Source of the DNA: a virus
Taxonomy: Duplodnaviria > Heunggongvirae > Uroviricota > Caudoviricetes
DNA length: 41,340 nucleotides
Virus record (IMG/VR): IMGVR_UViG_2778261227_000005
Location: 1 to 41,340 of that record
Strand: one strand, 5' to 3'
Shown here: positions 49 to 35,945 of the stretch, piece after piece
Layout of the letters: each line of letters begins with the position of its first letter
Numbering within the stretch: the stretch's first letter is position 1
Translations under genes and position numbers: made by a program
Notes under the pieces: generated by a model
What the model saw: only the letters and a program-made list of their open reading frames with translations
Told to the model about the DNA's origin: nothing
The model's database searches: none

Positions 49-2802
49 TTAGTCTCCAGGATTCCCGGGGCGGTTCAGAATGACTAGTTGTTGCCAATAA
101 ATTCGTAGGTCAGGAGCCCCGTTAGCTAAGCCTTTACCAAATTCGACGCGATACGGCATTCCATCCCGCAAAAAAAGATTAGGGCACAACTCATCAAGTC
201 CATGGGAAGATACTGCAAATTCGTGCCCCAACTTGAAAGCTTTGGCACAAAGTATTTTCCTGATTTCACTGAATTTATTAGTTCCTTGGTGCTCATAATC
301 AGCATCTAGAGCCCAAAAATCGCGCCTATTACTGAGTACATAAGCCATGATTGCCGAAACCAAGTCTTTAGGTTCTAATTCTCGTTCCAATGTCACAAGT
401 ATTTCCGGCAATGGTTCTACGTCTTCGTTATCTTTTCTTTTTGTATGGAAAAAGTAGATTGTTGAGCGGACAGCTTTCCAGCCTTCACCCCAAGGGCGAT
501 GGGCATGTAACTTACGAGCCGCATCAATTAATTTTGACCTTATTCCTCCATGACGCCAAATCCAGCGAAATTTATCAGCCAAGATCCGCCTGGCATCATC
601 TTCAAGCTCGGGCACTCCTGAGGTTCCTAATCTCACCAAAATATCGATGAAGGCGAATAGCCACGCAACAAGTTCATCGTAACTGGGTCGAAATCCATAA
701 TCTCTTGGCCTAGCACCAAACTCATTAATTCCGAATCCTGTCCACGGAGGTCCGCCGAGAGCAGTTTCAAGCATTTCGATCCCCATCCTTCTACGTTCGG
801 CCATACTTGAATCAATGCATTCATTCATGATCGCAACACGTTGTTCTAAAGAGGCATGGGTACCGGATAGATAAGGTTGGAAAAACCTCTTTATCTTATT
901 TCGAGCCGAATCATAATTATTGCTCGCGCTTTCCTGGTCTGCGATACGGATTAAGAGCTTAATGCATCGTTCAAAGTATTTCGATTCATATGCAAGTAAC
1001 TGCAACAATTTGATAATTGCTGTTCGTTGTGGGTTGTAGCGTGATTTAAAATGCTCAAAATTAGACGTAACAAGCGTTTCTTCAATCCTCTCAAGCAAAG
1101 TTCCTGGGGCAACTGGAGCGATATAATTTAGAATGCGTGTCGATACATCATCTAGGTCTATTATTTTTCCAAGCAGCCCTTCGGGCTGTAACCAAGCTTC
1201 AACAATCTCTTTAGCCACAGCATGGCTATGCAATAGTCCCAACCTGTGCGCGAACGACATCAATAATCGTTGCCGATCCGGAGCTTCAAAGGTCGTTCTA
1301 AGTTGATCAATCGGAATACTATTAAGTGCAGATGCTGCCAACTTGTTAGCAATGGCATGGGGAAGGATGGCTCTCCAGTGGGATCTTTTCTGAACAATGT
1401 GACGTTCCATCAACTTCGTAACAGCTTTGAATAACTGGATTTTGGGATACCCAGAGAGCACACCCAATATTTCCAGTTCATCGGTAGCTGCATCTGGACT
1501 AGATATCGAGAACGAATACACCAGTGACAATATTTCAGCTTGCTCCCGTAAATGGCCGTCGGGATGATTACGTTGTTCAAACAAGCGATTAAACAACTGC
1601 GCATCTGAAAGTAGGGCTAAACTCTCACCTTCTTCCACTCTTTCCGCTATAGCCAAAGCCACTCTTGCATTCCCATCTGCGAACTCTGCAATCCGACGGG
1701 CATTATTCTGACCAATAGAAGGGAAGCGACGGATAAGAAGTTGCTCTGCCACGTCTGGACCATCTGTCTCAATGTGGATGACCTCAGTTGTCTGTGGTTT
1801 GTCATCCCTAATGTCGTACTCGATCGTGATGAGACTTACTTCTTTCCCTGCGGCTGATACTTTGCTGGCAAGCGAAGCATGGAGTTCTGATGGGCAATTA
1901 TCAAGGATCATAATTGCTCGCCGGCCTTCAGCGAGCAGGTTATCAAGCATTGCTGTAGCCGACGGTACTGGCTCATAGCCAGTATCAACATAAATAGCTA
2001 CTGTTCGGTCAAGCGCATCTGTTCCAACAGTTTCATCAAAGAGCGCCTGAACGATTCGAGTCTTCCCAACACCAGACAATCCTGTAATACGAACAGCCTT
2101 GTTTGTCGAACGGATCAGTGCTCGCATTGGGTTAATTGCTTCATCAATTTTGAGTTTTTGCCCCTTTCCCGATGGTAAAGTAATGGTTACGCCTGGGGCT
2201 GAGATTAAAGTGTCTATAACACCTTGTGGTGGATTGCTCCAGGCTCCGTAGGGTTGCCAACCGGAATACCCTTGCCCAAGCTTTGCTTTTACCCACAGCA
2301 TGACTGATGGATGTTGGCGCAACCATTGGATGAGTTTGGAGCGGTCGTAGAAATCAAGATGAAGATAACTTTCGTTAGGATCATCTTTTACTGCATCCCT
2401 CATCGCTTTGAGACGATCCTTCTTTCCTGACGGCGAGCAATCATCACCCAGGCTGACAATGATGTAACTGCCTTGCTTTCTGGCTTGTTCAGAAATGATG
2501 GGAGAAAGTGCTTTGCCGGTGCCAATTTCCCTCTCAATTGCAGACTTAGGCATCTTATGTTTCTTTGCCTGAAAGACCGTATCAGGTCTTACAAGAAAGC
2601 CTGCTTTCAGTTGATCAATTGGAACCTGAACATGGATGTCAATTCCTCCGTCAGGGGCTGTAATTGAACCAGACCAATTTACACATGCTGGGCTATGGCC
2701 GTGCATTGCCACTTCAGCTTCTGCTAGCCGAGCGATCAGCTCTTCCAGCTGGATATCGGAGAGCCGAAGTAATTCGTCCTTTTCAATGTCAAAGATTGCC
2801 AC
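49..2802 (-). CDS. Mrr-like PD-(D/E)xK nuclease domain fused to P-loop NTPase with helical C-terminal region (917 aa); candidate STAND/Avs-like antiviral protein
   Basis: Uninterrupted 917-codon ORF. N-terminus has Mrr-type motifs (APDGGIDIHV ... VFQAKKHK), central Walker A GLSGVGKT and Walker B-like AIMILDNC, long C-terminal region with no motif I recognise. AT-richer than the prophage core. Family call from motif recall only. Confidence 0.7.
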   Translation of the reverse strand: MAIFDIEKDELLRLSDIQLEELIARLAEAEVAMHGHSPACVNWSGSITAPDGGIDIHVQVPIDQLKAGFLVRPDTVFQAKKHKMPKSAIEREIGTGKALSPIISEQARKQGSYIIVSLGDDCSPSGKKDRLKAMRDAVKDDPNESYLHLDFYDRSKLIQWLRQHPSVMLWVKAKLGQGYSGWQPYGAWSNPPQGVIDTLISAPGVTITLPSGKGQKLKIDEAINPMRALIRSTNKAVRITGLSGVGKTRIVQALFDETVGTDALDRTVAIYVDTGYEPVPSATAMLDNLLAEGRRAIMILDNCPSELHASLASKVSAAGKEVSLITIEYDIRDDKPQTTEVIHIETDGPDVAEQLLIRRFPSIGQNNARRIAEFADGNARVALAIAERVEEGESLALLSDAQLFNRLFEQRNHPDGHLREQAEILSLVYSFSISSPDAATDELEILGVLSGYPKIQLFKAVTKLMERHIVQKRSHWRAILPHAIANKLAASALNSIPIDQLRTTFEAPDRQRLLMSFAHRLGLLHSHAVAKEIVEAWLQPEGLLGKIIDLDDVSTRILNYIAPVAPGTLLERIEETLVTSNFEHFKSRYNPQRTAIIKLLQLLAYESKYFERCIKLLIRIADQESASNNYDSARNKIKRFFQPYLSGTHASLEQRVAIMNECIDSSMAERRRMGIEMLETALGGPPWTGFGINEFGARPRDYGFRPSYDELVAWLFAFIDILVRLGTSGVPELEDDARRILADKFRWIWRHGGIRSKLIDAARKLHAHRPWGEGWKAVRSTIYFFHTKRKDNEDVEPLPEILVTLERELEPKDLVSAIMAYVLSNRRDFWALDADYEHQGTNKFSEIRKILCAKAFKLGHEFAVSSHGLDELCPNLFLRDGMPYRVEFGKGLANGAPDLRIYWQQLVILNRPGNPGD

Positions 2803-3269
2803 TTTTAAACCCTATAAAAGATATTGCGACCATAGAAAAAGTTGCTCTTAGTCTAACCAATGAGGGAAGAGATGTCCGCTGAACATTTACAATTAAAACC
2901 ATCCACTTCAATTGGTTAAGATGTTCTGACTCAGAACTGTGATGTCGATCATACCTACTTTTACGTAGAGCTATCAGTATGTATGAAACTAAGGTCTAGT
3001 ATGAACAAAGGACAGGCTCATGCTTTATATGACTGTGAGGTTAACGAGCATTCTAGGTGCAAAAAGTTCCACTAACTTGATGATTTTTTATTCTTGAGGT
3101 GGTTTAGTGCGAGTTTAAAAATTTGGCTAATGTTTAAGATCAATAAATAAGTCCTGATTTTTTACTCTTTAGCAATTTTGTTAGCATTTTGTGTACATTA
3201 AAAATGAATTTTTAATATTAGTTTTTTTTAGATTTGGTTGTTTAAAATTTTATTGGGTGGAGTACCAAT

Positions 3270-6200
3270 ATGAAATGGATAAAAGCACTTAACCTTCAGC
3301 AATGGGCAGATTCTATTCCTGCAAAAGTTATTTTTCCAGCACTAATCGCTGATCTTATACGTGCAACGGCTAACAGTATTACTGAAATTAGATTTCCTAA
3401 TGGTGATAAGGGACAGGTTAGAGGTTATGACGGTGTACTTAAAGCCGAGGGGGTGGCCCCCTATGTTCCTGATGGCGACTCATTCTGGGAATTTGGTGTT
3501 AATGAAAAATTGCTTGATAAAGCTAACTTTGATTACGAAAAAAGAACACGCGAAGTTGCTCCAGAGATACGTCTAAAGACTACTTTTGTTTTCGCTTCAT
3601 TAAGAACATGGGATAATCCTAAGGTAAAGCTTGAAGACTGGCTACAAGAGAAACGCAATAGTGGTAAGTGGAAAGACATCAAATTAATTGATGGTTCTAT
3701 GCTTGAAGATTGGCTCGGTGTTTGCCCTGCTGTAGCTGCTTACTACGCTCGCTACCATCTTGAGCTAATGCCACAGGTTGGTGTTAGAAGCATTAAGGAG
3801 TTTTGGGATGAATTTTCCACTAAATTTAATCCCCCTTTAACTGAAGCAGTCTTGCTGGCGGGGAGAGAAAAGCAAAAAGAGCGTTTTCTGAATGAGTTAC
3901 GAGAAAATGGTCGAAAAATATCTTTAGCTGCAGATTCTCCGGATGAGGTTATTGCTTTTGCGATTGCAGCTATCAGAACCACTGAAGCGGAACTTCGACA
4001 TTCCTTTCAAAGTCGAGCACTAATTATTGATACGGATGATGCTGCAAGACAGCTTTCTGGAAAAAGAGGAATGATCTTCTTACCACGTGATCGAGCAAGA
4101 GCTTTAGCCGGTTTATTACAGCAAGCATCTATCACAGTAGTAAGTGCCGGAGCCGATGAAACACGAACTGATCACGAACTTCTGATCCGCCCAGATAGTA
4201 TATCTTTAGGTAAGGCTCTTGAATCTATGGGGTTTGATTCAGATAAAAGTTATCAAATAGCGCGGCAGTGTGGCCGAAGTTTGTCTGTTTTGGCTCGCCA
4301 GATATCAAGTAGCACGGCTGAATCACCTGAATGGAAAGACAGCCCTGAGTTGCTCCCTGCTTTATTAGCTGGTGCATGGAGTACATGTTCAGAGAAAGAT
4401 AAGTTAATTCTCAAGCAACTAGCTGGCTATACAGACTATTCTCAAGTTGAAAATCCATTAAGGCTATTAACAAAGCGCCGCGATTCTCCAATTGACCGAG
4501 TAGATGATATTTGGTCATTGCGTTCGTCGGTAGATGCTTTTGTACATTTAGGCTATTTGCTGGGTGAAGAACACCTGGAGCGTTTTGAGAAGGCCGTAAG
4601 AGAGGTTTTTTCCTATATTCCTGAACCACCAAAGGCCGAAGATCTGTTTGTACCTGACAATGGTATTAAAACGTCTTATAGCTCGTGGTTACGTAATGGA
4701 ATGACAACAGTTTTGCTACATATGGCAATATTACATGAACAGGCCGAATTCCGGGTTACTGGTATGACACCCCAAGATTTTGTTAACAAAATAGTTCAGA
4801 GTATTCCGGGACTTGCTAACGACCATCGACTATTTGTTAGTTTGCGAGATCAACTTCCGCTGCTGGCAGAAGCTGCCCCTGGCCCTTTCCTTGATGCCCT
4901 TGAGCAATTGCTTAAGGGCAATGGGGAAATGATTGCTCCAATATTCAATGAAGATAAAGGGCTGTTAACTCCTCGAAGTCATTATCATGGATTAAAATGG
5001 GCATTGGAAGCCTTGGCTTGGGAACAAACATATCTATTACGCGCTGCAATCTGTCTTGCAAAACTCGCTGTAATAGATCCCGGAGGAACTTACTCAGATC
5101 GCCCTCTTAATAGTTTAAGAACCATTTTTCTGGCATGGTCTCCTAATACATGGGCACCAGTAAAAGTTAGAAATGCAATTATAAAAAAAATTATCACTAT
5201 TGTTCCTAGTATTGGGTGGAGTTTGTTACAAAATCTCCTTCCTCGCTCCCATGATACCTCTGATCAAAACCAAAAAATGAAGTTCAGAGAGTCGGATAAA
5301 GATGTAGAAAAACTAACGTGGGGCGTTGTTTGGGAGGGGCAAATCTTTATTATCCAAGAAGCAATTAAACTTGCAGGTATACTCCCAACAAGATGGGAAA
5401 TCCTAATCTCTCATTTAAGCTCATTCCCTGAGAATGCAATAGATGAAACACTTTCTCATCTTGAACTTTGCCTTTCTCAACAAACTGAAGAGGATCAGTT
5501 CATCGTATGGGAGGCTTTGCGTCATGAGTATTCTCGCCATAAAAAATATTCAGATGCGAACTGGGCATTTAAATTTGAGTCTATGGAAAAAATAGCGAAA
5601 ATACTTGATAATTATAAACCAATTGACATGGTTAGAGCCAGTTTATGGATTTTCAATGATTGGGATTCTGATATTGAAGAGTCAATTGAAAATGCTGGCG
5701 GAATTTTTTCTTCTGTCGAAGAAATGCGAAGTGAAAAACTTAGGGAAATATACTTTACTTTAGGTTTGTCTGGGGTGAAAGACCTTTTTCAACAAGTTAA
5801 TAATGTTTTTATTGCAGCAAGGCATATATCAGCACTCTCGTTGGATGAAGAAAAATTAAATGATTTGTTTGTAATGCTTATTAACAACAAAAAAAATATT
5901 GATGAAGTTTGTGGGTTGTTAATGCAATATGGTGTTGAATGCTTTGGTGCTGAATGGCTTAATAAAATAAAAGTGTATTTTAAACAGTTTAAAATTACCC
6001 CTGATAGGGCTGGGAAAATCTTAGCATCGTTAAGAGACTCACAAGAGATATGGAGCATTATTGAAGGGTTTGAAGATAACATCAACGAAAAATATTGGTT
6101 GCAAAAACAACCCATTGCAATGATGGGTAAAACTTCGGATTTATTTGTTCTTATGGATAAATATATAGAAAGGGGCCGGGGTCTTGCTGCTATTATATCA

Positions 6201-30651: not shown

Positions 30652-32068
30652 CTATCTGCATGGCGTCGAAACCATTGAAGTGGAAAACGGTGCCCGTCCG
30701 GTTAAAACGGTGAAATCTGCCGTTATTGGCCTGATTGGTACCGCACCAATGGGCGACGTCAATACGCTGGTACAGTGCCTGTCAGAGAAAGACGCGGCGG
30801 CATTTGGCAGCCAGTTCACCGGCTTTACCATTCCGCAGGCGCTGGATGCGATTTATGACCATGGTGCAGGCACCGTTCTGGTCATTAACGTACTCGATCC
30901 GTCTGTGCATAAAACCGCTGTGGTCAGTGAGAATGTGTCGTTCGACAAGGCGACAGGCAGAGCCCGGCTGGCTAATCCGGTGGTCGCGCAACTGGTACTG
31001 AAACCGGACAGCGACGGTCAGCCTTATGTTGAAGGTCAGGACTACTCGCTTGATGCACAGACAGGGGTGATTACTAACCTGGGTAAAAGCATTGCTGCAG
31101 ATGCAACGGTGAAGGCCAGCTATAACTATGCTGATCCAACCAGAGTCACCCCGGCTGATATCATCGGTACCGTTAACGCTGCAGGCAACCGTACCGGCAT
31201 GAAGCTGCTTAACGACAGCTTTAACCTGTTTGGCTACTTCGCCAAGATCCTGATTGCTCCGGTATTCTGCACCCAGAACAGCGTCTCGGTTGAGCTTATC
31301 GCCATGGCTGAGAAACTGGGAGCAGTAACCTATATTGATGCGCCGGTTGGTACCACTTTTGCGCAGGCTCTGGCGGGACGTGGCCCGGAAGGCACCATTA
31401 ACTTTAATACCAGCTCTGACCGTGTTCGCCTGTGCTACCCGCATGTGAAGGTATATGACCCGGTGACGAACACGGAGCGTCTGGAGCCACTGAGCCAGCG
31501 TGCGGCGGGCCTGCGTGCCAAAGTCGACCTGGACAAAGGGTACTGGTGGTCATCCTCCAATCAGGAAATTCTGGGGATCACCGGCGTGGAGCGCCAGCTG
31601 TCGGCAATGATTGACGATCCGCAGAGCGAGGTGAACCTGCTTAACGAACAGGGGATCACCACGGTATTCAGCAGTTACGGCAGCGGCCTTCGTCTGTGGG
31701 GGAACCGGATGGCAGCATGGCCAACGGTCACCCATATGCGCAACTTTGAGAACGTTCGTCGCACCGGTGATGTGATCAACGAGTCCATTCGTTACTTCAG
31801 TCAGCAGTACATCGACATGCCGATTACTCAGGCGCTGATTGATGCACTGACGGAGTCGGTCAACGCCTACGGTCGAAAGATGATTAGTGATGGTGCCCTG
31901 CTGGGCTTCAACTGCTGGTTTGATCCGGCCCGCAATCCGGAGACGGAACTGGCCGCCGGTCACCTGCTGCTGAGCTACAAATACACGCCGCCGCCACCGC
32001 TGGAGCGGCTGACGTATGAGACTGAGATCACCTCGGAATACCTGTTAACCCTGAAAGGGGGCAACTGA
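30641..32068 (+). CDS. Contractile tail sheath protein (Mu L-like)
   Basis: 475 aa; immediately followed by a 173-aa tube-like gene. Confidence 0.8.
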   Translation: MAANYLHGVETIEVENGARPVKTVKSAVIGLIGTAPMGDVNTLVQCLSEKDAAAFGSQFTGFTIPQALDAIYDHGAGTVLVINVLDPSVHKTAVVSENVSFDKATGRARLANPVVAQLVLKPDSDGQPYVEGQDYSLDAQTGVITNLGKSIAADATVKASYNYADPTRVTPADIIGTVNAAGNRTGMKLLNDSFNLFGYFAKILIAPVFCTQNSVSVELIAMAEKLGAVTYIDAPVGTTFAQALAGRGPEGTINFNTSSDRVRLCYPHVKVYDPVTNTERLEPLSQRAAGLRAKVDLDKGYWWSSSNQEILGITGVERQLSAMIDDPQSEVNLLNEQGITTVFSSYGSGLRLWGNRMAAWPTVTHMRNFENVRRTGDVINESIRYFSQQYIDMPITQALIDALTESVNAYGRKMISDGALLGFNCWFDPARNPETELAAGHLLLSYKYTPPPPLERLTYETEITSEYLLTLKGGN

Positions 32069-32589
32069 TGTCAAAGATTGAGATAAACCGAATCACGAAT
32101 GCCAACATCTATCTGGATGGTACTAACCTGCTGGGACGGGCTGAGGAAGTTAAACTCCCCGATGTCTCCATGATTATGCAGGAACACAAGGCGCTGGGGA
32201 TGGTGGGTAAGGTGGAACTCCCGGCTGGTTTTGACAAACTGGAAGGCGAAATCAAATGGAACAGCTTTTACCGCGATGCGATGCTGTCTGTCGCGAACCC
32301 GTACAGGTCGCTGGCACTGCAGTGTCGCTCCAGCGTCCAGCGCTACAGCTCGCAGGGGCTGATTGACGAAATCCCGCTGGTCACCTTCCTGACGATTATG
32401 TTCAAGAAGAACCCGCTGGGGACGTTCAAACAGCACGAGAACGCCGAGTTCTCCAGCAGCTTCACCTGTACGTATATCAGACAGGTACTGGATGGTGAAG
32501 AGCTGCTGCAACTGGACTATCTGGCCAACATCTTCCGCGTCGGTGGCGTTGATCAACTGACTGACTATCGAATCAATGTCGGGGGCTGA
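32068..32589 (+). CDS. Tail tube protein (Mu M-like)
   Basis: 173 aa, ATGA-coupled to the sheath gene. Confidence 0.75.
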   Translation: MSKIEINRITNANIYLDGTNLLGRAEEVKLPDVSMIMQEHKALGMVGKVELPAGFDKLEGEIKWNSFYRDAMLSVANPYRSLALQCRSSVQRYSSQGLIDEIPLVTFLTIMFKKNPLGTFKQHENAEFSSSFTCTYIRQVLDGEELLQLDYLANIFRVGGVDQLTDYRINVGG

Positions 32590-32638
32590 CGGTGAGTGTT
32601 GAACTGACTGACAAAGGAGGCGATGTGCGTCACTGGGC

Positions 32639-32872
32639 ATGTCAAATGGTACGTGGTTTACCCTCCTTGATATTCCGGGGGTGGAGACCCTCTTTAATAC
32701 CCGTAAAACCAATGACCCGATTGACTGCACACGTTCAAAGGCCCGCAAACTGGCCGATTTGATTGAAGCATGGGAGCCGCCCGACCACTGGTTCTCCGGC
32801 ACCGGCAAATCTGAGGGAAAGGCGCTTCTCATCGCTTTCCTGCGTAACTGCAAGGGTTTTCGCACTTGCTGA
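32639..32872 (+). CDS. Possible small ORF (77 aa) between tube and chaperone genes
   Basis: ORF only; no convincing RBS at the right spacing. Confidence 0.25.
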   Translation: MSNGTWFTLLDIPGVETLFNTRKTNDPIDCTRSKARKLADLIEAWEPPDHWFSGTGKSEGKALLIAFLRNCKGFRTC

Positions 32873-32969
32873 CATCACAGGGGCTCCGGCCCCTTCTTCT
32901 TAATCCCCTTTAATATCCGTCACGTCCACCGCCAGACATACTGCTCTGAATTTACAAAGGAGTATGATC

Positions 32970-33305
32970 ATGTCACAGACCCAGTCCGATACTTTTACGC
33001 TGTCTTATCCTTTCACCACTGCTGCAGGTACCAGAATTGAACAGATTGAACTGAAACGCCTGACAGTAAAAGACCTGAAGCAGGTGCGCAAAATCAACAA
33101 AGACCCGGCAGACTGGGACGAACCACTGATTGCCCGTAGCACCGGTATCCTCCCGGAAGACCTCGATAACATGGATCTTGCCGACTATATGGAGCTGCAG
33201 AAACGATTTCAGAAAATCACTGGGCTGGGCAAGAGCGACAAAAACACTGATGCAGGCGCAGGGCCTGCTGGCGAGATGGTTCAGGTTTCAGCCGGGGGAG
33301 ATTGA
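32970..33305 (+). CDS. Tail assembly chaperone (upstream frame)
   Basis: Start at ATG 32970 with AAGGAG 7 nt upstream; lies between tube and tape-measure genes; overlaps a +1-frame ORF. Confidence 0.6.
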   Translation: MSQTQSDTFTLSYPFTTAAGTRIEQIELKRLTVKDLKQVRKINKDPADWDEPLIARSTGILPEDLDNMDLADYMELQKRFQKITGLGKSDKNTDAGAGPAGEMVQVSAGGD

Positions 33306-33387
33306 TGCCCTCGATACTGACGATCTGGAGATGTGGCTGGAGCAGGCTGAAGAGCAAATCAAAAGCGAGTTCGGCGACAATCAGTAA
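33130..33387 (+). CDS. Overlapping +1-frame ORF: possible frameshift extension of the tail chaperone, or a separate 45-aa ORF from ATG 33250
   Basis: Open +1 frame spans 33130-33387 and overlaps the chaperone 3' end; an A-run (gacaaaaac, 33237-33245) lies in the overlap. Confidence 0.35.
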   Translation: MPVAPVSSRKTSITWILPTIWSCRNDFRKSLGWARATKTLMQAQGLLARWFRFQPGEIDALDTDDLEMWLEQAEEQIKSEFGDNQ

Positions 33388-33479
33388 CAACGTATCACTT
33401 AACAGCCGCCAGTCGCGGCTGTTCTGCATGGGGTTCAGACACTTCCCTTCCGTTTTTTTGCTTTCAGAGGATAGCCACC

Positions 33480-35945
33480 GTGGCCAGTGAATTTTCAGTC
33501 GGCGTCATTATTGGCGGCATTGTCGGGAGCAGCTTCCGCTCAGCCGTCAGTGGCACCCGACGCGCCCTTGATTCCCTTGGTGATACCTCCCGCCGTCTGC
33601 AGGAACGCCAGAATGCCTTAACCCGGGCAACAGAACGTTATGGTCAACTGGGTTCTTCCCGGATGCAGCGTCTCAACAGCGAGTTGCTGCGGGTAAGCCG
33701 CACCATGGAGCAAATTGAACGTCAGCAGCGCCGTCTGTCAGCAGTATCAGCCACCGGTGATGCGTTGAAGGCTAACCGCCTAGCGCTCTATGGTCAGGGT
33801 GCAGAAACCTATGCTATTGGCAGAACGCTGGGCGCACCGGTCATGGCCTCGGTTAAACAATATGCCTCGTTTGAATCACAGTTACGGGATATCAGTGTCA
33901 CAGGAGACCTGGATGCAAAACAGGAACGTGCAATTGGCCTGGCTATCAGACAGGCCTCGCTGAAGGTTAACCAACTGCAGGAGTCTCTGTTAGGGGGAGT
34001 CGGACAATTAGTCGCTGATGGTATGGCCCCCGAACGGGCAGCAACGTTTGCAGAGATGCTTGGAAAGACCGCTACAGCAACCAAAGCCGATATGACCGAC
34101 CTTGCCAAAATGACTTATGCCTTCAGCGATGCACTCAGAATCACTGATGCGAAAGAACTTGAACAGGCATTTGGTATTGCGGCAACAGGAGCCAAACTTG
34201 GGTCATTTGAGCTGAAGGATATGGCAAAAGCATTACCCGGTATGGCTAAAGCCTTCGCTGCTCGTGGTATTTATGGAAAAGATGCGATTACCCAGATTGT
34301 TGCCAGTCTGGAGGTCGGTAAAGGTAGTGGCTCTGCAGAGGAAGCGGTCACCAATATGTCCAACTGGCTGGCAGCAATGGGCCGCGGAGATACCATCCAG
34401 AAATATGCTAAAGCCGGGGTGGATTACCAGGGGTCAATGCAGAATTACGTCGCTCAGGGTTTTTCGCAGTACGAAGCTTCACTGATGATTGCCAACCGTT
34501 TTATCGACAGTAAAGGCAAAGCGTTTTTGCAGCAATGGAAAGCTGCAGGAGCAAGAGGCGATCAGGAAGGTCAGCAGAAACTCATGGAGTCATTTGGTCT
34601 GGCTGAGGTCTTTACCGATATTCAGACTGTCAACCATTTACTGTCAATGCGACAGGGCTGGGATAAATACCTTTCCAGTAAGCAGGAAATGAATGCTCCG
34701 GCTGCAATTTCTACCCTGGATAAGGATGCTGCAAAGCAGAATGATACGCTTGAAGGCCGCTGGCGCAGAATGCAGATCGGCTTTAATGATTCTGCTATCA
34801 GCATCGGGCAATCCTTGCGTCCGGCTTTGCTCCAGTTGGGTGAAACATTTATTCCTTTAATGGACAGTGTTGGCAAATGGATAGCGGCAAATCCGCAGCT
34901 CGTCAGCAGCACCATAAAGGTTGTGGGCGCATTACTCGCTTTCAGGATGGCCACTATCGGTCTCAAGCTTGGGCTGAATCTCCTTCTTTCCCCCTTTGTA
35001 AGCGTCTGGAAAAATGCTGTTTTACTTCGGGCCAACTGGCTTCGTCTGACGCTCGCACTGGGGGAAGGCGGTAAACTCCGCTGGCTGGTGACAGGCTTTG
35101 GTGCTGTCGCCAGAGGAGCCAGAACACTGGGTGGTGTGCTCTCAGGGGGGCTGGTTCGCGGAATTATGAGCGCCGGGCGTGCCGTTCTCTGGATTGGCCG
35201 GGCGCTGATGATGAATCCCATCGGTCTCGCTATCACCGCCGTCGCGGCAGCAGCTTACCTTATCTACCGCAACTGGGGCGCGGTCAGTAGCTGGTTTAAA
35301 CAGCGCTGGGCTGACATTCAGGAAGCCTTTAACGGCGGTATCGCGGGAACTGGTAAACTGCTGGTTAACTGGTCTCCGGCAGGTCTGCTTTATAAAGCCT
35401 TTGCGGCTGCGCTGAAATATCTCGGCGTTGATTTGCCGGCGAAATTCACCGACTTCGGTGGTCATCTTATTGACGGGCTGATAAATGGCATCAGAAACAA
35501 ATGGGCGTCACTGAAAACCAGCATAACCGGAATGGGTGACAGCATCAGTGACTGGTTCAGCGAAAAGCTGGGCATCCATTCACCGAGTCGCGTGTTTATA
35601 GGCTTTGGTGACAATATCGCGCAGGGTGCCGCCATTGGCCTGCAACGGACCACTCCGCTTGCTGCACTGGCCGGGCAGCGCCTGGCCGCTGAAATGACAC
35701 CGGATGTTCCCCGTATCCCGTCGCCGGAAATCATGGCTGCCGGATATTCAGGCCGTGGCGCAACGGCAACCGGCGGTGGAGCGTCTGGCGGTATCCAGGT
35801 CAGCTTTAATCCTCAGTTTTTCCTCAATGGTAAGGAAACCGCAGCGCCTGCCGGGCTGGCTGGTGCCCTGAATATGAGCCTGCATGAGCTGGAAAAAATG
35901 CTGGAGCGTCTGCTGGCTCAGAAACAACGTAAGGAGTACAGCTGA
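33480..35945 (+). CDS. Tail tape measure protein
   Basis: 821 aa, Gly/Ala-rich with hydrophobic C-terminal segments; GTG start; follows the chaperone pair. Confidence 0.8.
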   Translation: MASEFSVGVIIGGIVGSSFRSAVSGTRRALDSLGDTSRRLQERQNALTRATERYGQLGSSRMQRLNSELLRVSRTMEQIERQQRRLSAVSATGDALKANRLALYGQGAETYAIGRTLGAPVMASVKQYASFESQLRDISVTGDLDAKQERAIGLAIRQASLKVNQLQESLLGGVGQLVADGMAPERAATFAEMLGKTATATKADMTDLAKMTYAFSDALRITDAKELEQAFGIAATGAKLGSFELKDMAKALPGMAKAFAARGIYGKDAITQIVASLEVGKGSGSAEEAVTNMSNWLAAMGRGDTIQKYAKAGVDYQGSMQNYVAQGFSQYEASLMIANRFIDSKGKAFLQQWKAAGARGDQEGQQKLMESFGLAEVFTDIQTVNHLLSMRQGWDKYLSSKQEMNAPAAISTLDKDAAKQNDTLEGRWRRMQIGFNDSAISIGQSLRPALLQLGETFIPLMDSVGKWIAANPQLVSSTIKVVGALLAFRMATIGLKLGLNLLLSPFVSVWKNAVLLRANWLRLTLALGEGGKLRWLVTGFGAVARGARTLGGVLSGGLVRGIMSAGRAVLWIGRALMMNPIGLAITAVAAAAYLIYRNWGAVSSWFKQRWADIQEAFNGGIAGTGKLLVNWSPAGLLYKAFAAALKYLGVDLPAKFTDFGGHLIDGLINGIRNKWASLKTSITGMGDSISDWFSEKLGIHSPSRVFIGFGDNIAQGAAIGLQRTTPLAALAGQRLAAEMTPDVPRIPSPEIMAAGYSGRGATATGGGASGGIQVSFNPQFFLNGKETAAPAGLAGALNMSLHELEKMLERLLAQKQRKEYS

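What the first reader, a model, noticed from the sequence alone, without database searches (positions are those of the whole stretch)
33130..33305. Overlapping +1-frame ORF at the tail assembly chaperone: candidate programmed frameshift
Between the tube and tape-measure genes the chaperone ORF (frame 0) overlaps an ORF in the +1 frame for ~175 nt, the conserved position of the chaperone frameshift in tailed phages. The frame relation is +1 (or -2) rather than the usual -1, and an A-run (gacaaaaac) lies in the overlap. The alternative is an independent 45-aa ORF from ATG 33250.
Basis: partly seen in the sequence, partly recalled or inferred. Interest (0 to 1): 0.35.

Follow-up and report, generated by a model that had tools for sequence, protein, structure and literature searches.

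The report
Tail chaperone +1 frameshift site

Summary
The overlap is real. The chaperone ORF (PF10109; true start ATG 32970, stop 33305) is overlapped by a +1-frame ORF open from 33130 to 33387, between the tube and tape-measure genes of a BcepMu-like E. coli prophage.

In one sequence the overlap is not unusual (about 8% by chance). Comparison makes it real:
- In 222/222 related loci, the conserved downstream domain (LLARWFRFQPxEID..., related to the P2 E' domain PF06528) lies in the +1 frame of the chaperone.
- Stop codons in relatives confine the frame change to window 33198-33215.
- The only slippery motif there is CGA_UUU_C (33204-33210). TTT_C is invariant in all 104 distinct loci of the first set, even in GC-rich hosts that use 3-8% TTT.
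- Codon periodicity switches frame at this point.
- A Trp is conserved in the +1 frame 3-6 codons downstream.

Best model: tRNA-Phe slips +1 from UUU to UUC, giving a 138-aa fusion homologous to P2 gpE+E', which uses -1.

Open points: there is no experimental proof, no stimulator was found, and a Pseudomonas-type subclade has UUG_C instead. RefSeq does not annotate the fusion.

The parts
32957..32962 (+). Shine-Dalgarno sequence AAGGAG of the chaperone gene
   Evidence: Read from the sequence. It lies 7 nt before ATG 32970 and only 1 nt before ATG 32964. Relatives lack the upstream ATG.
32970..33305 (+). Frame-0 tail assembly chaperone gene (gpE-like, 111 aa, stop TGA 33303-33305)
   Evidence: PF10109 Phage_TAC_7, E=1.5e-22. 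phrog_166 'tail protein'. RefSeq annotates it as 'phage tail assembly protein' WP_000084227.
33204..33210 (+). Proposed +1 shift site CGA_UUU_C. The P-site Phe codon is 33207-33209, and it re-pairs on UUC at 33208-33210.
   Evidence: TTT_C is present in 104/104 distinct loci of the first set and 54/76 of the second. In enteric sequences the codons are CGA 81/83 and TTT 83/83, while synonymous codons vary at other invariant residues. Across 11 clusters the TTT background is 3-49%, product 10^-8.2. The site is bracketed by stop codons in relatives.
33198..33215 (+). Interval within which the frame change must occur (Phe-3 to Phe+2 codons)
   Evidence: The +1 frame opens 3 codons before TTC in L006, L007, L056, L061, L062 and L064. 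Frame 0 stops 2 codons after Phe in L044, and 6-9 codons after in L040, L054, L057, L059 and L060.
33211..33387 (+). +1-frame extension (58 aa, stop TAA 33385-33387): RKSLGWARATKTLMQAQGLLARWFRFQPGEIDALDTDDLEMWLEQAEEQIKSEFGDNQ
   Evidence: The most variable codon position changes from the frame-0 wobble to the +1-frame wobble within 0-30 nt after TTT. A Trp is conserved 3-6 codons after Phe in 24/27 representatives. phrog_8286, E=4e-31.
33265..33384 (+). Conserved E'-type domain (LLARWFRFQPGEID...QIK) inside the extension
   Evidence: Alignment A3. PF06528 Phage_P2_GpE matches the fusion at E=0.0032, below the gathering score, and matches 11/18 clade representatives, best 6e-6. It aligns to P2 E' by blastp, E=0.023.
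33211..33305 (+). Dual-coding stretch: the poorly conserved frame-0 tail overlaps the +1 extension
   Evidence: The frame-0 tail length varies from 2 to 36 codons after the Phe among intact relatives (59 in the degenerate L022), and TAG replaces CAG 33282-33284 in KP12 and Phi06_2974B. Substitutions here are synonymous in the +1 frame.
33237..33245 (+).
   Evidence: It is not conserved and lies outside the permitted interval. It is a site of assembly indels in database proteins.
33294..33298 (+). G-run GGGGG near the frame-0 stop, a Mu-like -2 candidate; rejected
   Evidence: It lies inside the conserved E' domain, where it codes QPGE. It is absent in other clades (CAG TGA, GAG TGA). Frame 0 stops upstream of it in KP12 and Phi06_2974B.

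Best explanation
The gene at 32970-33305 encodes the tail assembly chaperone of a BcepMu-like prophage with a P2-type contractile tail.

Most ribosomes read it in frame 0 and make the 111-aa chaperone. A minority shift when Phe codon UUU (33207-33209) is in the P site. The single tRNA-Phe (anticodon GAA) re-pairs one base forward on UUC (33208-33210). Translation then continues from AGA 33211 in the +1 frame to TAA 33385-33387. The product is a 138-aa fusion: chaperone domain (80 aa), a short linker with a conserved Trp, and an E'-type domain.

By analogy with lambda G/GT and P2 E/E+E', the common N-terminal part would coat the tape-measure protein and the extension would recruit tube subunits. 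The frameshift would fix the ratio of the two proteins.

Shown here: the gene order, the homology, the conserved +1 relation, the bracketing of the shift interval, nucleotide-level conservation of CGA_UUU_C, and the switch of coding frame.

Inferred: that ribosomes actually slip, the direction (+1 rather than -2), the efficiency, and the roles of the two products.
For: 1. Context and homology. The tube, chaperone and tape-measure genes are in the expected order. The extension is related to the P2 E' domain. P2 E+E' is 142 aa, the predicted fusion is 138 aa, and both have the same layout.
2. Conserved frame relation. The E' domain is in the +1 frame of the chaperone in 142/142 and 80/80 loci from enterobacteria, Burkholderia, Pseudomonas, Ralstonia and others.
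3. Bracketing. Stop codons in relatives limit the shift to Phe-3 through Phe+2 codons.
4. Only one slippery motif fits. UUU_C is the only motif in that interval that permits re-pairing, and no -2 re-pairing is possible there.
5. Conservation of TTT_C. It is present in 104/104 distinct loci of the first set, and the next base is always C although the residue varies (Q, R, L, H). TTT is kept in 11 clusters whose neighbouring ORFs use 3-49% TTT, product 10^-8.2.
6. Synonymous constraint. In 83 enteric sequences the codons are CGA 81/83 (CGA is 10% of Arg codons nearby) and TTT 83/83, while other invariant residues change synonymous codon freely.
7. Frame switch. Wobble periodicity switches frames at the site, and a +1-frame Trp is conserved just downstream.
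8. Precedent. UUU_C is the +1 site of influenza PA-X (PMC3498833). BcepMu itself has UCC_UUU_CGC. UUU-pyrimidine sites are known to be prone to +1 shifting in E. coli (Schwartz & Curran 1997; the title is seen in the reference list, the content is from my own knowledge). Tailed phages use -1, -2 or +1 at this gene (PMC5009743).
Against: - There is no experimental evidence of any kind.
- No stimulator was found. The downstream RNA folds no better than shuffles (z=0.03) and shows no covariation. No Shine-Dalgarno-like sequence lies at a suitable distance. The zero-frame A-site codon CAG is common.
- A Pseudomonas-type subclade (21 distinct loci) keeps the +1 arrangement and an intact E' ORF but has UUG_C, and one locus has UUC_C. 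UUU is therefore not indispensable in every lineage, and another mechanism may contribute.
- The published BcepMu annotation proposes a different slippage, gp42 to gp43.
- The window's own extension matches PF06528 only below the gathering score.
Confidence: 0.72

Rival explanations
1. The frame change occurs in the same 33198-33215 interval but not by simple UUU-to-UUC re-pairing. One possibility is out-of-frame binding of the incoming tRNA, or a shift promoted by the I:A-decoded CGA codon in the E or P site. UUU_C would then be only part of the signal.
For: The UUG_C subclade keeps the +1 arrangement without a codon that can re-pair. CGA is conserved at the nucleotide level. CGA is part of the B. 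subtilis cdd frameshift site, per the reference list seen.
Against: TTT_C is invariant in the window's clade, is kept against codon bias in GC-rich hosts, and is a known +1 slip motif. CGA is absent in the GC-rich clades, which have GCC, TCC or GTG instead.
Confidence: 0.12
2. The E' domain is made as a separate small protein from an internal start in the +1 frame (ATG 33250 in the window), with no frameshift. Several GenBank records implicitly annotate it this way (BcepMu gp42, phiE255 gp16).
For: An ATG exists at 33250. Small separate CDSs are annotated in BcepMu, phiE255 and Komp_PAO1_1. PHROGs holds the piece as its own family, phrog_8286.
Against: ATG 33250 is not conserved: it is ACG in PhiKM and Trp or Ile codons elsewhere. 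No Shine-Dalgarno sequence precedes it. +1-frame conservation, including a Trp, starts 3-6 codons after the Phe, well upstream of any candidate start. The phiE255 annotated start would cut the conserved LLLVL motif. P2 E' lacks a ribosome-binding site and is made by frameshift (PMC3931495).
Confidence: 0.07
3. A Mu-like -2 slip (or a +1 slip) occurs on the G-run CC_GGG_GGA_GAU_UGA at 33292-33305, next to the frame-0 stop.
For: GGA to GGG re-pairing at -2 is possible. The run sits just before the stop, where such sites usually lie. Mu has a G-run, CGG_GGG_CGA, at its frame junction.
Against: The conserved E' residues LLARWFRFQP lie upstream of the run and would be lost. The run is absent in other clades. 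Frame 0 ends 3 codons before it in KP12 and Phi06_2974B, and far earlier in L044 and L054.
Confidence: 0.03
4. The overlap is fortuitous, or the fusion arises from RNA polymerase slippage rather than ribosomal slippage.
For: In a single sequence the overlap is within chance, about 8%. T6 runs exist in three relatives.
Against: The +1 relation holds in 222/222 loci, with protein-level conservation of the second frame. A run of only three T is far too short for known transcriptional slippage.
Confidence: 0.03

Closest known systems
Phage P2 gpE / gpE+E' (tail assembly chaperone pair, -1 frameshift at T6G)
   Same: Homologous N-terminal domain (PF10109) and homologous extension (PF06528, weak for the window itself, clear for the clade). 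Same position between FII-type tube and tape-measure genes. Nearly the same product sizes (142 vs 138 aa). In both, the shift sits at a Phe codon at the C-terminal edge of the chaperone domain (PMC3931495).
   Different: The direction is +1, not -1. The motif is CGA_UUU_C, not G_UUU_UUU_G. The shift lies 32 codons before the frame-0 stop, against about 7 in P2. In the alignment the P2 Phe is about 3 residues away from the window's Phe, so identity of the codon is not established.
Phage Mu gp41 and its -2 frameshift product
   Same: Same gene position in a transposable phage. The second frame is also the +1/-2 frame. Mu gp41 weakly matches PF10109 (PMC5009743, PMC3498833).
   Different: Mu carries the G-run CGG_GGG_CGA at its frame junction, close to the stop, and is reported to shift -2 there (PMC5009743, PMC3498833). 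Its chaperone belongs to PF23746, and I saw no similarity between its extension and E' on reading it (not formally compared). The window's tail module is P2-like, not Mu-like.
Lambda gpG/gpGT paradigm (Levin 1993; Xu, Hendrix, Duda 2004, 2013, 2014)
   Same: The same logic applies: two nested products in a fixed ratio from the gene pair just before the tape-measure gene. The functional model is taken from here (PMC5009743).
   Different: No sequence similarity. Lambda shifts -1 on a heptamer near the end of G, and lambda has a non-contractile tail.
Influenza A PA-X +1 frameshift at UCC_UUU_CGU, and E. coli UUU-pyrimidine +1 sites
   Same: The same proposed event: P-site tRNA-Phe moves from UUU to UUC. 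BcepMu and L060 even carry UCC_UUU_CGC (PMC3498833).
   Different: The system is bacterial. In the window the flanking codons are CGA and CAG, with no rare A-site codon. The biology is unrelated.
BcepMu gp41/gp42/gp43 as annotated in NC_005882
   Same: Orthologous locus with the same ORFs.
   Different: That record treats the E' ORF (gp42, from an internal ATG) as the 'G' protein and proposes slippage from gp42 into gp43. The comparative data here instead support gp41 shifting +1 into gp42 at UCC_UUU_CGC.

Membership tests
Phage_TAC_7 (PF10109; P2 gpE / Mu gp41 / 'gp14' chaperones) | Profile match above the curated cut-off | tested here: met
   79.8 bits against a cut-off of 25, E=1.5e-22, residues 10-84 of the 113-aa ORF.
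P2 gpE+E' type fusion | The extension belongs to the Phage_P2_GpE domain (PF06528) | tested here: inconclusive
   The window fusion scores 17.4 bits, E=0.0032, below the gathering score of 23. 11 of 18 clade representatives match at E<=0.01, best 6e-6. blastp against P2 E' gives E=0.023.
P2 gpE+E' type fusion | -1 frameshift on a T6G/T7G run | tested here: not met
   The extension is in the +1 frame in all 222 loci. The window has TTT_C, not T6G.
Tail assembly chaperone G/GT-type programmed frameshift (Xu et al. 2004) | Gene pair lies between the major tail/tube gene and the tape-measure gene | tested here: met
   Tube PF04985 at 32068-32589; tape-measure PF10145 at 33480-35945.
Tail assembly chaperone G/GT-type programmed frameshift (Xu et al. 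2004) | Second ORF overlaps the first, lacks a conserved start of its own, and the arrangement is conserved in relatives | tested here: met
Tail assembly chaperone G/GT-type programmed frameshift (Xu et al. 2004) | A slippery sequence lies in the overlap and is conserved beyond coding needs | tested here: met
   CGA_TTT_C; synonymous-site and codon-bias tests.
Tail assembly chaperone G/GT-type programmed frameshift (Xu et al. 2004) | Both products are made, in a low fixed ratio, and both are needed for tail assembly | not testable with these tools
   This needs protein detection and genetics.
Mu-type -2 frameshift | Re-pairing two bases back on a G-run, with CGA in the A site, close to the stop | tested here: not met
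   No -2 re-pairing is possible within 33198-33215. The G-run at 33294-33298 is excluded by conservation and by stops in relatives.
UUU_C P-site +1 slippage sites (PA-X type) | In-frame UUU followed by C at the point where the coding frame changes | tested here: met
   The exception is the UUG_C subclade.
UUU_C P-site +1 slippage sites (PA-X type) | The junction peptide shows Phe followed directly by the +1-frame residue | not testable with these tools
   This needs protein sequencing.

The most novel reading that the evidence does not exclude
CGA_UUU_C, and UCC_UUU_CGC in BcepMu, may be a natural bacterial +1 frameshift signal that works without a stop codon, a hungry codon, a Shine-Dalgarno-like element or RNA structure. 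It would have replaced the -1 T6G signal of P2 at the equivalent place in a homologous gene. The sister subclade that keeps the +1 arrangement with UUG_C would then shift frame without any codon that can re-pair, which points to an unrecognised stimulator in the nascent chaperone or in the mRNA.
Probability: 0.25. Interest if true: 0.6.

Novelty: new variant of a known kind. Interest (0 to 1): 0.4.

Why it matters
- Annotation. The 601-nt region matches 637 of 5426 complete E. coli genomes. In the RefSeq record checked (strain M114) it is annotated as a single 'phage tail assembly protein', with no fusion product and no E' ORF.
- Function for an orphan family. PHROGs lists the extension as a family of unknown function, phrog_8286.
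- Correction of a reference genome. The BcepMu reference annotation proposes a different slippage.
- Recoding. This would be a deeply conserved +1 site in E. coli with no stop codon, sharing its core with influenza PA-X. It would also be a case where homologous genes reach the same two-protein outcome by -1 in P2 and +1 here.
- Practical use. Engineering of these prophages or of tailocins derived from them must preserve CGA_UUU_C.

Tried and rejected
- G-run as shift site. My first idea was a Mu-like -2 or +1 slip on the G-run 33294-33298. I dropped it when KP12 and Phi06_2974B showed a frame-0 TAG upstream of the run and the E' domain proved to start at 33265.
- A-run.
- Downstream RNA structure. 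Folding gives z=0.03 and the alignment shows no covariation.
- Upstream Shine-Dalgarno-like stimulator. The enteric clade has none at a useful spacing. GAGGUG abuts the site only in the Pseudomonas-type clade.
- Natural in-frame fusions. The 138-144-aa database proteins (P0001-P0010) join the frames at different homopolymers (A5, G5, G3), and several shift again. They are assembly indels, not evidence.
- Searches that failed or added little. The search for related loci with the chaperone alignment A2 failed for lack of a conserved stretch. A scan with P2 E' returned only near-identical P2 copies. NCBIfam and the PDB sequence search gave nothing.
- Papers not held. Schwartz & Curran 1997, Christie 2002 and the P2 review could not be read, and Xu et al. 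2004 could not be consulted directly.
- Structure prediction was not attempted. The fusion is not a plain translation of the window, and the relatives' sequences may not be submitted.

Full report
**What is there**

The ORF listing and the raw sequence confirm the finding's description. A frame-0 ORF ends at TGA 33303-33305. A +1-frame ORF is open from 33130 to TAA 33385-33387, so the overlap is 176 nt. The A-run lies at 33237-33245 and an ATG at 33250.

The frame-0 product is a Phage_TAC_7 chaperone (PF10109, E=1.5e-22). It is flanked by a P2 FII-type tube gene (32068-32589) and a tape-measure gene (33480-35945), with a sheath gene further upstream.

The window is a BcepMu-like prophage of E. 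coli. It is 100% identical over this region to strain M114. A match to the 601-nt region occurs in 637 of 5426 complete E. coli genomes. The closest phage records are PhiKM (genus Bcepmuvirus), KP12 and Phi06_2974B.

The true start is ATG 32970, which has AAGGAG 7 nt upstream and is the start shared by relatives and RefSeq.

**Is the overlap more than chance?**

Not on its own. 18 of 218 alternative frames at the ends of long ORFs in this window are at least as open, and 8.6% of codon shuffles of the chaperone gene reach the same upstream length. The case rests on comparison with relatives.

**The second frame encodes a conserved domain**

In relatives from Salmonella, Ralstonia, Burkholderia (phiE255, BcepMu) and Pseudomonas, the +1 frame encodes LLARWFRFQP[GS]EIDxLxxDDxxxWxxxAxxQIK or the variant LLLVL[KR][IM]QPSEI....

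In a Pasteurella phage and in P2 itself, the same kind of domain is reached by -1.

Two collection scans were seeded only with this domain. Both returned loci in which the chaperone, recognised independently, is always one frame behind: 142/142 and 80/80.

The extension matches Pfam Phage_P2_GpE weakly in the window (E=0.0032, below the cut-off). It matches in 11 of 18 clade representatives, best 6e-6. It also aligns to P2 E'.

The predicted fusion is 138 aa, against 142 aa for P2 gpE+E'.

**Where the frame changes**

Two candidate sites fail.
- The G-run at 33294-33298 was my first candidate, by analogy with the Mu G-run CGG_GGG_CGA seen. It lies inside the conserved domain, and frame 0 already stops upstream of it in KP12 and Phi06_2974B.

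Stop codons in relatives bracket the event.
- The +1 frame opens only three codons before a conserved Phe codon in six loci from at least three clusters.
- Frame 0 ends two codons after that Phe in L044, and six to nine codons after it in five others. There are many more such cases in the second set.

This leaves window 33198-33215: AAA CGA TTT CAG AAA. In it, only UUU_C allows a P-site tRNA to re-pair, by +1 onto UUC. No -2 re-pairing exists there.

**Nucleotide-level conservation**

All 104 distinct loci of the first set have TTT, never TTC. The next base is always C, although the residue there is Q, R, L or H.

Eleven clusters (60% amino-acid identity) all keep TTT, although neighbouring long ORFs use TTT for only 3-49% of Phe codons. 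The product of these fractions is 10^-8.2.

In 83 enteric sequences, invariant Asp, Glu, Tyr, Leu and Gln residues change synonymous codon freely. The Arg before the Phe is CGA in 81 of them (CGA is 10% of Arg codons nearby), and the Phe is TTT in all 83.

Upstream of the site the most variable codon position is the frame-0 wobble. From about 30 nt downstream it is the +1-frame wobble.

A Trp is conserved in the +1 frame three to six codons after the Phe in 24 of 27 representatives. This is upstream of any candidate internal start.

**Mechanism and precedent**

The best reading is a +1 P-site slip of tRNA-Phe from UUU to UUC.
- This is the event shown for influenza PA-X at UCC_UUU_CGU (PMC3498833). 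BcepMu and L060 carry UCC_UUU_CGC.
- UUU-pyrimidine sites are known to be prone to +1 shifting in E. coli. This rests on my own knowledge of Schwartz & Curran 1997. That paper appears in a reference list but could not be read.
- Tailed phages are reported to use -1, -2 or +1 at this gene, and Mu uses -2 at about 2% (PMC5009743, PMC3498833).

The functional model is inferred from lambda and P2, not tested here. In that model the common part binds the tape-measure protein and the extension recruits tube protein.

**What argues against, or is unexplained**

- No stimulator was found. The downstream RNA folds no better than shuffles, and ten diverse sequences show no covarying pairs. The A-site codon CAG is common.
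- A Pseudomonas-type subclade of 21 distinct loci has GAG_GUG_UUG_CGG (and one locus has UUC_C) with an intact E' ORF. I found no site there that can re-pair. Its sister clade has UUU at the same place, and both carry a Shine-Dalgarno-like GAGGUG directly upstream.
- Overall, TTT_C holds in 158 of 180 distinct loci.
- Database proteins that look like in-frame fusions are joined at different homopolymers and are assembly indels.

**Comparison with annotation and literature**

RefSeq annotates only the short chaperone. GenBank records for phiE255 and Komp_PAO1_1 call the tail of the extension as a separate small CDS. BcepMu annotates gp42 (the E' ORF from an internal ATG) and a slippage from gp42 into gp43, which the comparative data do not support. 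PHROGs files the extension as unknown function.

I found no paper in the held library that describes a +1 shift in this group. Xu et al. 2004 and Summer et al. 2004 could not be consulted directly, so prior description cannot be excluded.

**Verdict**

This is a real feature of a known kind: the tail-chaperone programmed frameshift, homologous to P2 E/E+E'. It is a variant in direction and signal (+1 at CGA_UUU_C rather than -1 at T6G). Interest is moderate.

Noticed in passing
window 32592-32872: The small gene between the tube and chaperone genes is 93 aa and intact in E. coli M114, PhiKM and KP12 (RefSeq 'hypothetical protein'; weak DUF7739 hit). In the window it is split into two ORFs by a 1-nt deletion in a G-run (GGAGG-CG vs GGAGGGCG, about 32617-32621). 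This is either a mutation or a sequencing error.
   Followed up: partly
window 32879-32894: A terminator-like hairpin AGGGGCTCCGGCCCCT followed by TCTTCTT lies just upstream of the chaperone gene and is conserved in relatives. It could lower expression of the chaperone and tape-measure genes relative to sheath and tube.
   Followed up: no
window 33402-33422: A hairpin ACAGCCGC-loop-GCGGCTGT lies between the stop of the +1 extension and the tape-measure start. The stem is invariant and the loop varies among four relatives. It has no T-tract and was not called as a terminator.
   Followed up: no
loci L207, L218, L224, L192, L222 and 16 others (about 52 nt before the E' anchor at 1501): A Pseudomonas-type subclade has Leu UUG_C (GAG GTG TTG CGG) where all other clades have Phe UUU_C, yet it keeps the +1 arrangement and an intact extension. 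How it changes frame is unexplained.
   Followed up: partly
L152 (BcepMu NC_005882) 2603-3364: The reference annotation proposes slippage from gp42 into gp43. gp43 is a frame-0 read-through of GC-rich sequence, and in phiE255 the same stretch carries a gene on the opposite strand. The conserved arrangement is gp41 shifting +1 into gp42 at UCC_UUU_CGC.
   Followed up: partly
proteins P0001-P0010: Public assemblies contain chaperone 'fusions' joined at the A5, G5 or G3 runs of this gene. These are typical homopolymer indel errors that mimic frameshift products.
   Followed up: yes
window 33302-33490: The -1 frame is also open for 62 codons across the chaperone stop and up to the tape-measure start. 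I did not examine whether it is conserved.
   Followed up: no
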